Source: Octopus sinensis (Eukaryota). Taken from it: DNA of 64,000 nt. Shown in pieces: positions 1 through 61,900 of this stretch. The stretch's first letter is position 1; each line of letters opens with the position of its first letter. The position numbers are program-made. The stretch is from positions 17,236,001-17,300,000 of the forward strand of contig NC_043006.1 of NCBI RefSeq assembly GCF_006345805.1. The letters run 5' to 3'.

Positions 1-528
1 ACAAACAAGGACAGACACACGGATTAAGTTGATAACATCAACCCCAGTGCATAACTGGTACTTAATTTATCGACCCCCAAAAGGATGAAAGGCAAAATTG
101 ACCTCGGTGGAATTTGAACTCAGAACGTAGCAGCAGACGAAATACCACTAAGCATTTCATCCGGCGTGCTAGCGTTTCTGCCAGCTTGCTGCCTTAAGTG
201 CACAACTGGTATTTCTGTCATCAAACTCTATGTCATCAATCATGAAAGGATGAAAAGCAAAGTCGATCTTGGTAGAATTTGAACTCAGAATATAATAATT
301 CTGCCATCTCACCTTATATATATATATGTTGATTCACTAGCTTCTGCACGCATTTTTTCTCTCCTTGTTTCTTTCCGTGTTTCTTTTCTGTGTATCTTTC
401 TGTTGAAGAGCGTAGGCTCGAAACGTAAAAGACTTGTTTTATTTATATTCCTGAGCGCCATACTAATACAATTGTTTGTTTGTATTCCACCTGCCTTCGT
501 CTTTTGTTTATTTTCATAAAGCTTTCCG

Positions 529-561
<33 letters not shown>

Positions 562-2158
562 ACAGCCTTTTTTCTATCAAATCGTCTCACAAGACTATGT
601 AGGCTTAAGGTGCTATGCAATAGGATTGAACCTCGAAACACTTGGTTGGGAAGCAAGTTTCTTAACCACACAGCTATGTCTGAAGATTTAGTTTTTTTTC
701 TTTTCTTTTTTTCTTTTCTTTTTATTTTAGATATTTTTAATTCTTGTGTGTTTGTGTGTGATTTTTATTTTATATCTTCATTTAATCACTATTTAAGCAT
801 CATGACCAATATCTAATTAAAAGGTCATTTAGTTAAATGTTAAATACTTTCTCTGTTTCACGTTGGAGGAAGCCAGAGAAACGTAAGTTGTAATTTTGTG
901 TGATGACATTAACTTGTTCAATGAATAAGTATTGTGAATGAAGTATTCACTCACACCAACAAGGGAACCTTAATGTGGTCAGCCAATATACTAGAAATAA
1001 TAGTAAAATCTCTCACAGATCACACCCTATCATGTTAAATAAGAAAAGGATACATAACATTATTGTACATAACTCCAAAAGCCTGCATCCTGCATTAGAC
1101 ATTACAATGCAAGGAGTACAAAAAGAATTAAATAAGATGGTCACAGCTGGATTGCCTTTTGTCATAGATTTCTTTTAGATAAGCCAAGTCTTCCACAAAT
1201 CATTATCATTGCTTTACTGTCCTCTTTTCCATATTTGCATGGGTCAGATGGACTTCATTGAGGCAGATTTTCTAGGGATGGATGAATTTTATGTTGCCAA
1301 CCCTCACTTCCAAGTAAGGTAATGGTCACTGCCTGGCTGGATATGCTTTCTTCAAAGATTGGAAACGAAGGGCACCACTTGTATGATGGTAATGCTTGCT
1401 TACAGCTACCATGCACAGTCAAGACAACACATAACACACCTTTTTTTTTACCTTCCATATACTCAGAAAACTTTCACCAGTTCGGAACTGTAACAGAAGA
1501 GAGTTGCATAAGGTACCATGCAGTGGGGCTGAACCCAAAGCCATTGGATTGCAAAGCCAAAATCTCAGGCACACACTCACACCTGCACTCCACTATGTTA
1601 AATAAAGAGAGGATACATCAGATAATGCATTCAAAGATATCCTCTAGAAAAAGGTGGAACACACATAGTTTGAAGGCCTTTGATCACAAATCTGCTTAGT
1701 CAGGGTTGAGTTAAGACTTCACAGCAAAGCAATTTGTGTTTGTATATCTAAAACGAAATAATTATATATAATGTATTTAGTTATATAAAGAGGTCTGTCG
1801 CCAGTTCAGTATTTGATCTGCATCAAAAATATGAAAAATGTAAATAGAACACACCTTTTTTAATTAACATAAGGTTTGTAATATTGTCCATTGATTACAT
1901 TAGCAATGGGAGTGTTGTCTTTGATTGACACATCTTAATTAATGCATCTTTTAAAATTAAAGTATTTGTGTAATGGTCAACATTAATTTAGTATCATCAT
2001 AAACACTGAGATGAGTTAAGAAATACTTTTCCCACCTGTATTACCACAATTTGTATTACTCATATCAGTTGAATAAATATTATTTGATGAGGGTACCTGA
2101 CCAGGTGTTAAATGTGATGAGTGCCCTTTTCTTTTGCTTGTCCACTCACTCGTGTGTG

Positions 2159-2204
<46 letters not shown>

Positions 2205-2665
2205 ATTATATATATATATACGGGTGGCACGTAAAAAGCACCCACTACACTCACGGAGTGGTTGGCGTTAGGAAGGGCATCCAGCCGTAGAAACACTGCC
2301 AGATCTGACTGGGCCTGATGAAGCCTTCCAGCTTCACAGACCCCAGTTGAACCGTCCAACCCATGCTAGCATGGAGAACGGACGCTAAATGATGATGATG
2401 ATGATATATATTGATAAAAACGGTAAGATGACAAAAGAAAGAAAGAGACCTCAATATTATGTAAATAGAAGAATTTATCTGTAAAATAATATGTGACAAT
2501 TATTCGGTAGCCAAGGTAAAACTCCGAGTTTCAGATGCCGAGGTGGAAATCCATGCCACCATCTTCAGTTATCTGGCCATCGGAAAAATGCTATGAAAAA
2601 TGACCCTTATACAAAGGGAAATTTGTATATGCATGTGTATATATTGTATATATGTATACATGTAC

Positions 2666-58451: not shown

Positions 58452-58514
<63 letters not shown>

Positions 58515-58932
58515 ACTTATATATATATAATATATATATAGGCACAGGAGTTCCGGGTTCAGTCCCACTGCGTGGCATCTTGGGCAAGTGTCTTCTGCTA
58601 TAGCCTCGGGCCGACCAATGCCTTGTGAGTGGATTTGGTTGACGGAAACTGAAAGAAGCTTGTCGTATATATGTATATATATATATGTGTGTGTGTGTCT
58701 GTGTTTGTTACCCTAGCATTGCTTGACAACCGATGCTAGTGTGTTTACGTCCCCGTCACTTAGCGGTTTGGCAAAAGAGACCGATAGAATAAGTACTGGG
58801 CTTACAAAGAATAAGCCCCGGGGTCGATTTGCTCGAATAAAGGCGGCGCTCCAGTATGACCGCAGTCAAATGACTGAAACAAGTAAAAGAGTATATATAT
58901 ATTTATATATATATATATATAATATATATATA

Positions 58933-58992
<60 letters not shown>

Positions 58993-61900
58993 TATGCATG
59001 ACTCAAGTTAGAGAAGTGGTGCGTATTACATGCAAGGTTTAGGTTTTTCAGAAGTACAGACCCCTAAAAATCCCCTGCGTATTATACTCAAGGGCAGACT
59101 ATACTCGAGGATTTACGGTATATATATATGGAATGGCATCCATTAGTCTTGAAAGACTATGGATCTGCATCTTGGATTGGATTTGGTGCTGCAAATGTGG
59201 TTGGTCGGTTGGTCATTTGTTGGTGGTTTGGTCTTCCTCTGTCTCCGTCTGTTCTCTGCTGTCTGACGTATGTGATCTTCTCTTTCCCTCAGGGTGGTAC
59301 TCAGCATCTCTCTCCAGCAGGAATGATCTTTTGCCATGTTCTTTTAGGTTTTTTTTATTCACGCTCATGGCCTAAAAAAATGCCCTTATGGCGTGTGTCT
59401 CAAAGAGTATCTGACAGCCAAGTCCAGCTCCTGGCCTTCTCATGTGGCCTATCACCTGGGCCCGGCGGAACTGTTACTACTGACAGGAGAAGTGACAAGG
59501 GCAAGTTACTGGTGCCCCAAAACCAGTGCTTTGGGTAGATGGGACCGGTTAGCCCTGGAAGGCAACCCATCTATGAGAAGGAAAACTCTGACTCCAAACC
59601 CCACTGCTTTATGGTGAAACCCATCATGGGAAATGTTTGGGGAGAAAACACTGAGGAAAAATCCAGAGCTGGACTCCTGAAGGTAGTTTGAAATTGTACT
59701 CAACCTAACTCTGGCATGGTTCGTAAGGTTGTCAAACCAGGGTATGGGGTGGGAATAAGCTCCTACATATATGCGTTAATCACATTTGGTAAAAAAGGCT
59801 TATTGATGTGTTTTGTTTCTTTTTTTTTTCCCTGACAAGATGATTGCATTGTTTTACATTATTTTATTCCCTCCAGAATAATATCAATGTTTTCTTTGAA
59901 ACATATGTTGGAAGTATAAAGATTTGAATAATGTGCGCTTAACTCCATTTCTTAATTTATATATATATATACTAGCAGTATCGCCCGGCGTTGCTCAGGT
60001 TTGTTTTGACCCTTTAGAATTGGAATTTTTGAAAAGTAAAAATTTTGCATCATGTAGCTTGTTATTCTCCTTAAGTGAACATTTTTCTGGTTGAAATACA
60101 GCGAGAAATGGCGTTACAGCAGTAAAAAGATCGTAAAAAATAGGGATTTTCATAGAAAAAAAGCACCTTTTTGATGTAAATAATTTTTAGTGTTAACATG
60201 GTCCGATTTGAATTTTATCTTCCACGGAATAAAGAGCAAGCCTTCTTCTATCATACTCTCAATTTTGGTCAACTTGCACCGCAGGGCCTCGGAGGAGATA
60301 GTGTTAGTTGAAGGCTACCAAACCTGCCATAACAGACAACTTCAGCTTTATACATATAGATATGTATGTATGTATATATGTATGTATGTATATTCATATG
60401 TATGTATATATAGTGCAGCAATAAGTTTTTGGCAGCTTTAATCCATCACCTGATTTTAATTCACAGCCGGACATCGTTTATTTTCATTTGTGTTGCTAAT
60501 GCCTTTGTCAAAGACTTGATGACTATGAAACTATCCAATTCCTTTCTTGTAAATGATCATGTCAGTGTGAAGCAGCCACATTATATTTCGTTGATAGCAC
60601 TGTACATCACCACACACTTTCTGCCATTACTTCATAGCAATTTTTTCATGATAATTTGTTATCTATTCACAATAATTTGTTATCTATACAATGACAAAAA
60701 TGTATATATGTAGTCATAGATGTTGGTATTGCTTTGAGGTTAACTTGTTCGCCTTTCCAATTACTTGGCATGTCTTCTACTATAGTCCAAAGCTGAACAA
60801 TGCCTTATGAATGAATTTGATAGACAGACATTGAAAGAAGTTCTTCACTGTGTGTATGTGTGAGCATGTGTGCATGCACACACACATGTATATATGTATG
60901 CATGTATTATATGCTTTGACAATGGATTACCTCACTGTCTGCTTTGAATACTTCTGTCTAGCCAGCTAATGGCTTACTTTAAATTGATAAGCCTCGATCC
61001 TTTATGGATCTAATGTATCTGGAAATATATATATATATATATATAGATAGATAGATAGATATGTGTGCAATAGACTGGGAGATTCTTACCTTGCCTGGAA
61101 ACAACTCGTGGTTGGCAACAGGAAGGATGTCTGACTGTAGAAAAACACTGCATTCAACATACTCTTGACTAACCCAATCAAGCATAGAAAAATAGATGGT
61201 AAAGTGAGGATGATGATGGTGGTGGTGTTGGTGGTGATGGAGGAGGTGGTAGTGGATAAGTACATGCACTTTAACGATTAAAACAATGATGTGTACATTA
61301 TGTGTAACACATTTATACTCCAAAAGATATCAGCAGACTGTCAGACACCCATGTTTCGACATGATTTTCTCTTCTCAGTGACAGGTACCAGCTCAGCTCT
61401 TAGGACTTCTATTTCTTGGAACTTCTACTTCTATTGAGGGATCAGGAAACAAGGCATTTGCTTATGTGTGCAAAAGATTGCCATGCTTAAACTTAAATTA
61501 GCATGTATGCAGGCATTAAAATAACGATGTGTTCATCATTTATAACATGACAGTCTGCTAATGTTATTTGAAGCATGTCATATAAGAAGTTGTTCTTTAG
61601 GAGTAAACCTTACAGCAAGTGCCACTCTGCATATAAATGATGTCCTATCATTACATATTTAATAGTAAAGTCAGCACTTGTAAACATAATAAACCAAGAA
61701 ATTTTAATTTATTTAACTTAAGGATGAGAATAAATCTAAATATTCAGTGCTGGTAAAAAATGGCAGGGGAGACAACTTCAATGTTTTAATGAGGTAATGT
61801 GGCCATTGCCTATGTTGTGTAACTAGCACCTATGCCGGTGGCATGTAAAAAGCAGTTTTTGAGTTTTGGGCCTCATGGAGGCAATGACAAATAACCAAGA

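What the first reader, a model, noticed from the sequence alone, without database searches (positions are those of the whole stretch)
395..61384. Several unrelated short retroelements carry hammerhead ribozymes and PLE-type insertion scars
Seen: five sequence-unrelated contexts have the hammerhead layout stem I - core - stem II - GAAA - short or palindromic stem III - UH - stem I (395; 2514; 12767/25848/25919; 11399/49277/49664; 61338). Three hammerhead insertions have 12-15 bp TSDs, three have 5' inverted segments, and a decayed PLE RT lies at 22440-23560. Established: PLE pseudo-LTRs and non-LTR retrozymes carry type I hammerheads, often minimal with a palindromic stem III thought to work as dimers, and PLE insertions often have inverted truncated segments. 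Inference: this genome hosts a diverse, high-copy set of non-autonomous ribozyme elements mobilised by PLE RT/GIY-YIG proteins. I cannot verify whether these families are already described.
Basis: partly seen in the sequence, partly recalled or inferred. Interest (0 to 1): 0.85.

Follow-up and report, generated by a model that had tools for sequence, protein, structure and literature searches.

The report
Hammerhead-bearing short retroelements with Penelope-type scars
Three unrelated short mobile-DNA families in this window carry the stripped-down hammerhead ribozyme typical of Penelope-like retrotransposons and show that group's insertion scars, a known kind of element, while two further claimed ribozymes do not hold up.

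Summary
F1 (400-427), F3 (12774-12810; 25890-25855) and F4 (49669-49704; 49317-49282; a broken copy near 11399) have the minimal type I hammerhead published for Penelope-like elements (PLEs). It has short helix I, one unpaired base between A9 and 10.1, a G10.1-C11.1 helix II, GAAA, a palindromic helix III and U-H. A descriptor built on those features found 3 perfect and 1 one-mismatch site, against 0 and 0.01 per shuffle. Rfam finds no hammerhead. Sites 2514 and 61338 lack defining features and fold otherwise.

The scars are confirmed: TSDs of 12, 15 and 12 bp, one backed by three empty paralogous sites, and three head-to-head inverted 5' copies. I add two PLE traits. The inverted arms stop 37 and 40 nt short of the forward 3' end, and two families sit in (TA)n. 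A decayed PLE reverse transcriptase lies at 23649-22727 (minus) without its GIY-YIG part. No tandem copies exist, so "retrozyme" is not met.

This is a new member of a known kind. Modest novelties are F3's G3-C8 core swap and F4's tRNA-like head. Copy number, Repbase/Dfam status and cleavage are unchecked.

The parts
328..529 (+). F1 element, about 200 bp, lying between (TA)n runs at 315-327 and 530-558
   Evidence: No other full copy in the window.
395..432 (+). F1 minimal hammerhead. Helix I 395-399/428-432, core CUGUUGA 400-406 (A6->U), extra A 407, helix II 408-419 (4 bp, loop GUAG), GAA 420-422, palindrome ACGU 423-426, A17 427 with predicted cleavage after 427.
   Evidence: one-mismatch hit. 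MFE keeps helices I and II, z -2.40.
34045..34086 (+). Possible 5'-truncated copy of the F1 3' end inside (TA)n. A duplicate lies at 28871-28912 within a segmental duplication.
   Evidence: blastn 487-561 vs 34047-34118 at 81% and 487-548 vs 28873-28931 at 77%. Sequences seen. Similarity is weak in the last ~15 nt.
12748..12955 (+). F3 copy A, a 208-bp insertion into another repeat, flanked by the 12-bp TSD AAATATAACAAA (12736-12747 and 12956-12967)
   Evidence: Three empty paralogous sites (54956.., 55442.., 17398..rc) carry one copy of the 12-mer. Positions.
12767..12817 (+). F3 hammerhead. Helix I 7 bp (12767-12773/12811-12817), core GUGAACA 12774-12780 (G3...C8 swap), extra G 12781, helix II GUCGC/GCGAC 12782-12800, GAA 12801-12803, palindrome AAUAUU 12804-12809, U17 12810.
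   Evidence: perfect hit. MFE equals helices I+II, z -2.35.
25722..25910 (-). F3 copy B, full length on the minus strand, set in (TA)n. Its intact hammerhead is at 25897-25848 (core from 25890, U17 at 25855). Changes relative to copy A lie only in loop II, plus a 19-nt deletion after helix I.
   Evidence: z -3.77.
25907..26051 (+). Inverted copy of F3 positions ~1-145, joined head-to-head to copy B. It stops 57 nt short of the element's 3' end. Its hammerhead has two helix I substitutions that both break pairs.
11016..11521 (+). F4 locus a, flanked by the 15-bp TSD AACAGCAGCTATTCA (11001-11015 and 11522-11536). Parts: inverted segment 11016-11045, tRNA-like head 11046-11129, nested unrelated SINE about 11134-11287, (AAT)n-like run 11288-11347, and body 11348-11521 with a broken hammerhead near 11398-11440.
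49229..49797 (+). F4 locus b, flanked by the 12-bp TSD AAGTATCTTCTG (49217-49228 and 49798-49809). It is two near-full copies head to head: an inverted arm 49229-~49500 lacking the last 40 nt, and a forward arm ~49500-49797.
49664..49709 (+). F4 hammerhead with a canonical core. Helix I 49664-49668/49705-49709, CUGAUGA 49669-49675, extra A 49676, helix II GGCUGG/UCAGCC 49677-49696 (6 bp incl. one G-U), GAA 49697-49699, palindrome ACGU 49700-49703, U17 49704.
49277..49322 (-). F4 hammerhead in the inverted arm. It has the same core. C11.1 is U, giving a G.U pair. Helix III is AUGU, and helix I has G.U in place of A-U.
22727..23649 (-). Decayed PLE reverse transcriptase, with frameshifts and stops. 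It corresponds to about residues 94-407 of a 747-aa RVT_1+GIY-YIG protein. No thumb or GIY-YIG part was found.
   Evidence: phmmer with the 56-aa piece gave 93 hits at E<=1e-3, best 3.7e-18. Pfam on 15 of those hits: RVT_1 in 14, GIY-YIG in 8. tblastn: 25 of 25 hits of >=400 aa map here.
2514..2575 (-). Claimed hammerhead context 2: not supported, either hammerhead-like by chance or a relic
   Evidence: (no hit)
61338..61384 (-). Claimed hammerhead context 5: not supported (A at position 8, 2-bp helix II)
   Evidence: (no hit)

Best explanation
F1, F3 and F4 are short, non-coding retroelements of about 200-300 bp. Their 3' module copies the pLTR/ORF-junction region of Penelope-like elements: a minimal type I hammerhead followed by about 90-145 nt that ends the element.

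Inferred mechanism. A PLE RT/GIY-YIG protein made elsewhere in the genome binds this module in trans. It nicks AT-rich or (TA)n DNA on both strands and starts reverse transcription at one of two neighbouring internal sites. Priming on both strands gives head-to-head inverted copies, one without the 37-40-nt tail, and TSDs of 12-15 bp. The hammerhead has no helix III hairpin, so it could cut only when two copies pair through the palindromic 15.1-16.1 stretch, or with protein help. It probably processes multimeric or read-through transcripts and is not needed for insertion itself.

F4 additionally has a tRNA-like head and an internal (AAT)n run. That makes it a SINE-like element in the style of the schistosome SMalpha elements.

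Shown here: the motifs, their excess over chance, the TSDs, an empty site, the inverted arms, the tails, the (TA)n targets and the RT relic. Inferred: trans-mobilisation by a PLE, and any cleavage.
For: The motif matches four features that the authors of PMC4209133 (parts 1-2 of 4 read) say were not in their descriptor but recur in PLE hammerheads. These are a nucleotide between 9 and 10.1, G10.1-C11.1, palindromic 15.2-16.2, and helix I of 4-5 bp. All three families have them, against 0 perfect hits in 100 shuffles.

All 3 F3 copies keep G3 and C8. In the two intact F3 hammerheads, differences lie only in loop II. In F4, a helix I change A->G keeps pairing as G.U.

TSDs and an empty site were found.

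An inverted 5' copy adjacent to the 5' end, a 30-40-bp tail and a (TA)n bias are described as PLE traits in PMC8557442 (passages). Here there are three head-to-head structures. The two independent F4 insertions have inverted arms that end at the same element position +/-2 nt, 37 and 40 nt before the forward 3' end.

PMC11167929 (parts 1-2 of 4) reports that a purified PLE protein cuts and extends both DNA strands. It starts RT at two adjacent internal sites that define the tail, and it prefers AT-rich DNA. It does not need hammerhead cleavage for insertion, and the C3G/G8C double mutant partly restores cleavage.

The cleavage site lies 93 nt (F4), 102 nt (F1) and 145 nt (F3) from the 3' end, the same scale as the 85-92 nt in that paper. 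A PLE RT relic is in the window.
Against: No Rfam hammerhead hit at any threshold tried.

F1 has U at the invariant A6, in a single copy. F3's core is not canonical. There are too few copies (1-3 per family) for a covariation test.

One of 3 F4 copies and 1 of 3 F3 copies are broken, so there is no sign of recent constraint.

Insertion ends do not coincide with predicted cleavage sites, so nothing shows the RNAs were ever cut.

The RT relic is decayed, lacks GIY-YIG and has no sequence link to F1, F3 or F4.

A family without a hammerhead has a 14-bp TSD, and a DUF6451 ORF is present; I recall this domain from RTE-type LINEs, so a LINE partner is not excluded by TSD length.

F3's tail is 57 nt, longer than the published 30-40.

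The N3-N8 pairing rule was added after I had seen F3.
Confidence: 0.72

Rival explanations
1. The elements are ordinary LINE-mobilised SINEs, for example with an RTE-type partner. They happen to contain a hammerhead-like stretch, and their 5' inversions come from twin priming.
For: F4 has a tRNA-like head and an internal simple repeat. The 12-15-bp TSDs are shared with a SINE-like family that has no hammerhead. A DUF6451 ORF at 4421-4771 may be a LINE relic; that association of the domain is recalled, not tested.
Against: As I recall it, twin priming inverts a different, upstream part of one RNA. Here both arms cover the same element region. The arms stop at a fixed internal site 37-40 nt before the 3' end in two independent insertions, which is the published PLE tail. 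Three unrelated families share the PLE-specific hammerhead layout. No element has a poly(A) or LINE-like tail.
Confidence: 0.12
2. They are non-LTR retrozymes in the sense of Cervera and de la Pena 2020: tandem repeats that spread through self-cleaved circular RNAs.
For: They carry type I hammerheads with a palindromic helix III in short non-coding repeats. The literature links retrozymes to PLEs (PMC7229834 passages; bioRxiv 10.64898/2026.07.22.740005, part 1 of 5 and passages).
Against: No F1, F3 or F4 copy is in a head-to-tail tandem in the window. Element ends are not at cleavage sites. The preprint does describe solo monomers as derivatives, so solitary copies of tandem families elsewhere remain possible.
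Confidence: 0.1
3. The hammerhead resemblance is coincidental or fossil. The motifs have no catalytic or recognition role in these elements.
For: There is no Rfam hit. The cores are non-canonical in F1 and F3. Published PLE min-HHRs cleave poorly in vitro even as dimers (PMC4209133). Hammerhead mutants did not affect insertion in vitro (PMC11167929).
Against: Chance is very unlikely for three families (0 perfect hits in 100 shuffles). The layout is retained in unrelated sequences.
Confidence: 0.06

Closest known systems
Minimal hammerheads (min-HHRs) of metazoan Penelope-like elements (Cervera and de la Pena 2014, PMC4209133)
   Same: Type I topology. No helix III hairpin, but a palindromic 15.1-16.1 stretch. 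An unpaired base between A9 and 10.1. G10.1-C11.1. Helix I of 4-7 bp. Found mostly as single dispersed motifs, sometimes as pairs on opposite strands 100-700 bp apart, as in F3 copy B and F4 locus b.
   Different: Helix II is 4-6 bp here, against the 7-8 bp reported for schistosome families. F3 has G3-C8, whereas that paper and PMC3088659 report U3-A8 as the natural covariation. None of these motifs sits in the pLTR of an RT-coding PLE in this window.
SMalpha / Sjalpha SINE-like elements of Schistosoma (Ferbeyre 1998 and Laha 2000, as cited in PMC8490949 and PMC6765202; originals not read)
   Same: A short non-coding retroposon that pairs a promoter-like head with a type I hammerhead. This resembles F4.
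   Different: As I recall, SMalpha carries a canonical hammerhead with tertiary contacts. F4 has the PLE-type minimal form, an internal (AAT)n run, and inverted-arm and tail scars. The tRNA nature of the F4 head is only weakly supported.
Poseidon PAc of Anolis (Frangieh et al. 2024, PMC11167929)
   Same: The geometry of hammerhead followed by about 90 nt to the RT start. Two RT start sites 30-40 nt apart. Both DNA strands used. AT-rich targets. Partial activity of a C3G/G8C core.
   Different: PAc is autonomous and its swap was engineered. Here the elements are non-coding and the swap is natural.
Non-LTR retrozymes (Cervera and de la Pena 2020, PMC7229834; Li et al. 2026 preprint)
   Same: Non-autonomous, type I hammerhead, proposed PLE dependence.
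   Different: Retrozymes are defined by tandem units, each with a hammerhead. No tandem copy occurs here.

Membership tests
Hammerhead ribozyme, PLE-type minimal form | Core C3-U-G-A-N-G8-A9 ... G12-A-A with the 3-8 positions able to pair | tested here: inconclusive
   F4 is exact in 2 of 3 copies. F3 matches only if the G3-C8 swap is accepted (3 of 3 copies). F1 has A6->U. Sites 2514 and 61338 fail.
Hammerhead ribozyme, PLE-type minimal form | Helices I and II flanking the core, with G10.1-C11.1 | tested here: met
   Helix I is 5, 7 and 5 bp; helix II is 4, 5 and 6 bp. The MFE keeps both helices in 5 of 5 intact motifs. The 49317(-) copy has G.U at 10.1-11.1.
Hammerhead ribozyme, PLE-type minimal form | Unpaired nucleotide between A9 and 10.1 | tested here: met
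   A, G and A in F1, F3 and F4. Feature as stated in PMC4209133.
Hammerhead ribozyme, PLE-type minimal form | Palindromic 15.1-16.1 stretch in place of a helix III hairpin, followed by H17 | tested here: met
   ACGU+A, AAUAUU+U and ACGU+U.
Hammerhead ribozyme, PLE-type minimal form | Compensatory changes across family copies | tested here: inconclusive
   Only 3 copies each of F3 and F4. There is one pairing-preserving change, A-U to G.U, in F4 helix I. Two pair-breaking changes lie in the F3 inverted arm.
Hammerhead ribozyme, PLE-type minimal form | Match to curated Rfam hammerhead models | tested here: not met
   No hit. I expect motifs without a helix III hairpin to score poorly; that expectation is my inference.
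Hammerhead ribozyme, PLE-type minimal form | Site-specific self-cleavage | not testable with these tools
   Needs transcription and cleavage assays of monomer, dimer and protein-assisted RNA.
Penelope-like element (autonomous) | PLE-clade RT joined to a GIY-YIG endonuclease, flanked by pLTRs | tested here: not met
   An RT relic at 23649-22727 is homologous to RVT_1+GIY-YIG proteins. No GIY-YIG part, pLTR or hammerhead lies next to it.
PLE-mobilised non-autonomous element | Inverted 5'-truncated copy adjacent to the 5' end | tested here: met
   F3 copy B, F4 locus a and F4 locus b.
PLE-mobilised non-autonomous element | 30-40-bp tail present at one end only, from two RT start sites | tested here: met
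   37 nt and 40 nt in two independent F4 insertions, at the same position +/-2 nt. F3 has 57 nt.
PLE-mobilised non-autonomous element | AT-rich or microsatellite target bias | tested here: inconclusive
   F1 and F3 copy B lie in (TA)n. The F3 copy A TSD is AT-rich. The two F4 TSDs are mixed. The number of insertions is too small.
PLE-mobilised non-autonomous element | 3' module homologous to the pLTR/ORF junction of an autonomous PLE of the same genome | not testable with these tools
   The window holds no intact PLE. No collection of this genome, Repbase or Dfam was on hand.
Non-LTR retrozyme | Head-to-tail tandem units, each with a type I hammerhead | tested here: not met
   No tandem arrangement of F1, F3 or F4 in the self-comparison.
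tRNA-derived SINE (F4 head) | tRNA-related 5' region with a pol III A and B box | tested here: inconclusive
   ARAGORN at default settings finds none. It makes calls only at 70-80% thresholds. Rfam tRNA does not hit. Box-like motifs were seen by eye against a recalled consensus.

The most novel reading that the evidence does not exclude
F3 may be a natural hammerhead in which the catalytic C3-G8 pair is inverted to G3-C8 and kept in every copy. That swap is so far documented, in the papers I could read, only as an engineered rescue mutant. Together with F1 and F4 it would also define the minimal cis-module (hammerhead plus about 90-145 nt) that lets unrelated short RNAs, including a tRNA-headed SINE, hijack PLE proteins. 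The 37-40-nt tails would then be genomic evidence for the two-start-site model of PLE reverse transcription.
Probability: 0.3. Interest if true: 0.55.

Novelty: new member of a known kind. Interest (0 to 1): 0.4.

Why it matters
PLE transposition is the least understood retrotransposition mechanism. Its only in vitro system dates from 2024. Short non-coding passengers that keep just the hammerhead and about 100 nt mark out what the enzyme needs in cis. Their scars (both-strand priming, two start sites) are natural replicates of the in vitro result. A natural G3-C8 core would extend the known sequence space of active hammerheads and of search descriptors. Otherwise this is routine repeat annotation: PLE-type hammerheads are reported by the thousand in many animal genomes.

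Tried and rejected
- Rfam at gathering and permissive thresholds found no hammerhead. The many microRNA rows are microsatellite hairpins.
- Pfam on nine RT pieces gave nothing. The word-indexed protein search with the 56-aa piece also gave nothing. The Atlas look-up gave only unnamed clusters, plus one cluster with RVT_1 on 13% of members. 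phmmer then worked.
- RNAcofold of homodimers returned trivial swapped duplexes. It says nothing about a double hammerhead.
- A MAFFT alignment of the five motifs misaligned F1, so I built no covariance model.
- ARAGORN on the F4 head made calls only at relaxed thresholds.
- I rejected F3 copy 25905's two helix I changes as compensatory. Both break pairs.
- Three papers were not held: Przybilski and Hammann 2007, Nelson and Uhlenbeck 2008, and Lunse et al. 2017. Supplements were not opened.
- No collection of eukaryotic genomes, Repbase or Dfam was available. Copy numbers, family consensuses and prior description therefore stayed unchecked.
- The organism was not determined.

Full report
**What the window is**

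It is 35% G+C and packed with microsatellites and SINE-like repeats. It has no long ORFs. Pfam was run on 93 of the 170 stop-free frames of >=75 aa. It found only TE relics: DUF6451, two mariner HTH_48 domains and one integrase core. I did not determine the organism.

**Are the hammerheads there?**

Rfam says no. At gathering score the only hit is a weak tRNA at 63149-63221. In the whole-window run at E<=10, the 150 rows shown of 238 are microsatellite hairpins. Four small stretches covering all five contexts gave no Hammerhead family at E<=10.

I therefore wrote descriptors.
- With an exact CUGANGA, only the F4 pair at 49669(+) and 49317(-) fits, and only if one extra base follows A9.
- With <=1 core mismatch there are 5 loci, against 1.3 +/- 1.0 in 40 dinucleotide shuffles. 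With no mismatch there are 2, against 0.025.

Cervera and de la Pena 2014 (PMC4209133, parts 1-2 of 4 read) list features of PLE hammerheads that were not in their own descriptor:
- a base between positions 9 and 10.1;
- G10.1-C11.1;
- palindromic 15.2-16.2;
- a short helix I;
- a natural U3-A8 covariation.

A descriptor made of these features, allowing any Watson-Crick 3-8 pair, finds 3 perfect sites: 12774(+), 25890(-) and 49669(+). It also finds 1 one-mismatch site at 400(+). In 100 shuffles it finds 0 perfect and 0.01 one-mismatch sites per shuffle. The 3-8 rule was added after I saw F3, so it is partly post hoc.

The three families are unrelated in sequence. In all five intact motifs the MFE fold keeps helices I and II, with z-scores from -1.4 to -3.8.

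**The two contexts that fail**

At 2514 (minus strand) the 5' half is good: CUGAAGA, then U, then GGUGG/CCACC. But 9 nt separate helix II from GAAA, and helix I has only 3 bp. The MFE pairs CAGAU with AUCUG across the core.

At 61338 (minus strand) position 8 is A and helix II has 2 bp. The MFE places GAAA in a hairpin loop, with z -0.43.

Neither has other copies, a TSD or an inverted arm. Descriptors tailored to each are rare in shuffles (0.12 and 0.05 per shuffle). These were fitted to the sites themselves, so I call the sites unsupported rather than excluded.

**Family anatomy**

*F3.* Copy A (12748-12955) interrupts another repeat. Three paralogous uninterrupted copies show a single AAATATAACAAA where copy A has two, giving a 12-bp TSD. 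Copy B lies on the minus strand (25910-25722) in (TA)n. A head-to-head inverted copy of element positions ~1-145 (25907-26051) is joined to its 5' end. All three copies have G at position 3 and C at position 8. The two intact motifs differ only in loop II. The inverted arm has two changes that break helix I pairs.

*F4.* Locus a (11016-11521) has a 15-bp TSD. It starts with a 30-nt inverted segment, followed by a tRNA-like head, a nested unrelated SINE, an (AAT)n-like run and the body. The body's hammerhead has lost GAAA. Locus b (49229-49797) has a 12-bp TSD and consists of two near-full copies head to head. The tRNA-like nature of the head is weak. ARAGORN finds nothing at default settings and makes calls only at 70-80% thresholds.

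*F1.* The element (328-529) sits between two (TA)n runs. Its core has U at A6. Short stretches at 34045-34086 and 28871-28912, which lie in a segmental duplication, resemble its 3' end and also sit in (TA)n.

In both independent F4 insertions the inverted arm ends at the same element position, within 2 nt. That point is 37 nt (locus a) and 40 nt (locus b) before the 3' end of the forward copy. In F3 copy B the gap is 57 nt.

Craig et al. 2021 (PMC8557442, passages) describe three PLE traits: inverted 5'-truncated copies at the 5' end, a 30-40-bp tail at one end, and microsatellite bias, including (TA)n.

Frangieh et al. 2024 (PMC11167929, parts 1-2 of 4) report the following:
- A purified PLE protein cuts and extends both DNA strands.
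- It prefers AT-rich sites.
- It starts reverse transcription at two adjacent internal RNA sites that delimit the tail.
- Those sites are 85-92 nt downstream of the hammerhead cut site.
- It does not need hammerhead cleavage for insertion.

Here the predicted cut sites lie 93 nt (F4), 102 nt (F1) and 145 nt (F3) from the element's 3' end. Element ends never coincide with cut sites.

**The RT**

The frame 22727-22894 (minus) carries RT motifs by eye. Pfam, the word-indexed search and the Atlas gave little. phmmer found 93 proteins, the best at 3.7e-18. Of 15 long hits scanned, 14 have RVT_1 and 8 have a C-terminal GIY-YIG. All 25 hits of >=400 aa map by tblastn to 23649-22727 on the minus strand, across frameshifts. 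That span corresponds to about residues 94-407 of a 747-aa protein. Nothing maps to the thumb or the endonuclease. It is a relic and shares no sequence with F1, F3 or F4.

**Caveats**

- Each family has 1-3 copies here, so conservation and covariation cannot be tested. "High-copy" is unverified.
- A family without a hammerhead shows a 14-bp TSD, so TSD length is not diagnostic.
- PLE min-HHRs cleave poorly in vitro, and the Anolis one needs protein.
- Searches for a natural G3-C8 core found only engineered cases. The most relevant survey, Lunse et al. 2017, and two mutational papers are not held. No supplements were seen.

**Verdict**

This is a sound reading of three PLE-type hammerhead elements and their scars. 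It overreaches on two motifs, on the retrozyme label and on copy number. The kind of element is well known. The G3-C8 core, the tRNA-headed carrier and the tail evidence are modest additions.

Noticed in passing
26811-27071: A minus-strand copy of a ~240-bp SINE-like family without a hammerhead (26825-27057) is nested in a plus-strand copy of the same family. It has a 14-bp TSD, GGTACTTATTTAAT, at 26811-26824 and 27058-27071.
   Followed up: partly
3964-4354, 6852-7245, 7472-7885, 17820-18233, 24215-24637, 36693-37110, 38377-38757, 40244-40700, 58540-58893: A ~400-bp SINE-like family with an internal microsatellite has at least nine copies at 80-95% identity. It shows no hammerhead by descriptor.
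   Followed up: partly
2223-2405, 30113-30291, 42675-42875, 52312-52557, 53747-53927, 62004-62193, 63834-64000: A ~180-bp repeat family ending in a (GAT)n/(AAT)n-like run. One copy is nested inside F4 locus a at about 11134-11287.
   Followed up: no
4421-4771 (+): A 117-aa frame matches Pfam DUF6451 (E 5e-17). It may be a LINE relic; the link of this domain to RTE-type elements is recalled, not tested.
   Followed up: no
15859-16167 (+) and 21336-21785 (-): Mariner-type transposase HTH_48 domains. The two regions are inverted copies of each other at 86% (21217-21562 vs 16352-16007).
   Followed up: no
35796-36152 (+): A fragment of an integrase core domain (rve, below Pfam's cut-off), probably an LTR-retrotransposon relic.
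   Followed up: no
28798-29421 and 33990-34614: A ~620-bp segmental duplication at 82% identity. It contains the possible F1 3'-end fragment inside (TA)n.
   Followed up: partly
52484-52853: A tandem array with a unit of about 62 bp, adjoining a copy of the ~180-bp family.
   Followed up: no
63149-63221 (+): The only Rfam gathering-score hit: a weak tRNA (30.6 bits). ARAGORN calls it tRNA-Met-like only at a lowered threshold. It is probably a SINE head or a pseudogene.
   Followed up: partly
12748-12765 and 12886-12900: The first ~15 nt of F3 are nearly the reverse complement of an internal stretch. That stretch ends exactly where the inverted arm of copy B stops. I cannot explain this. It could be a stem at an RT start site.
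   Followed up: no
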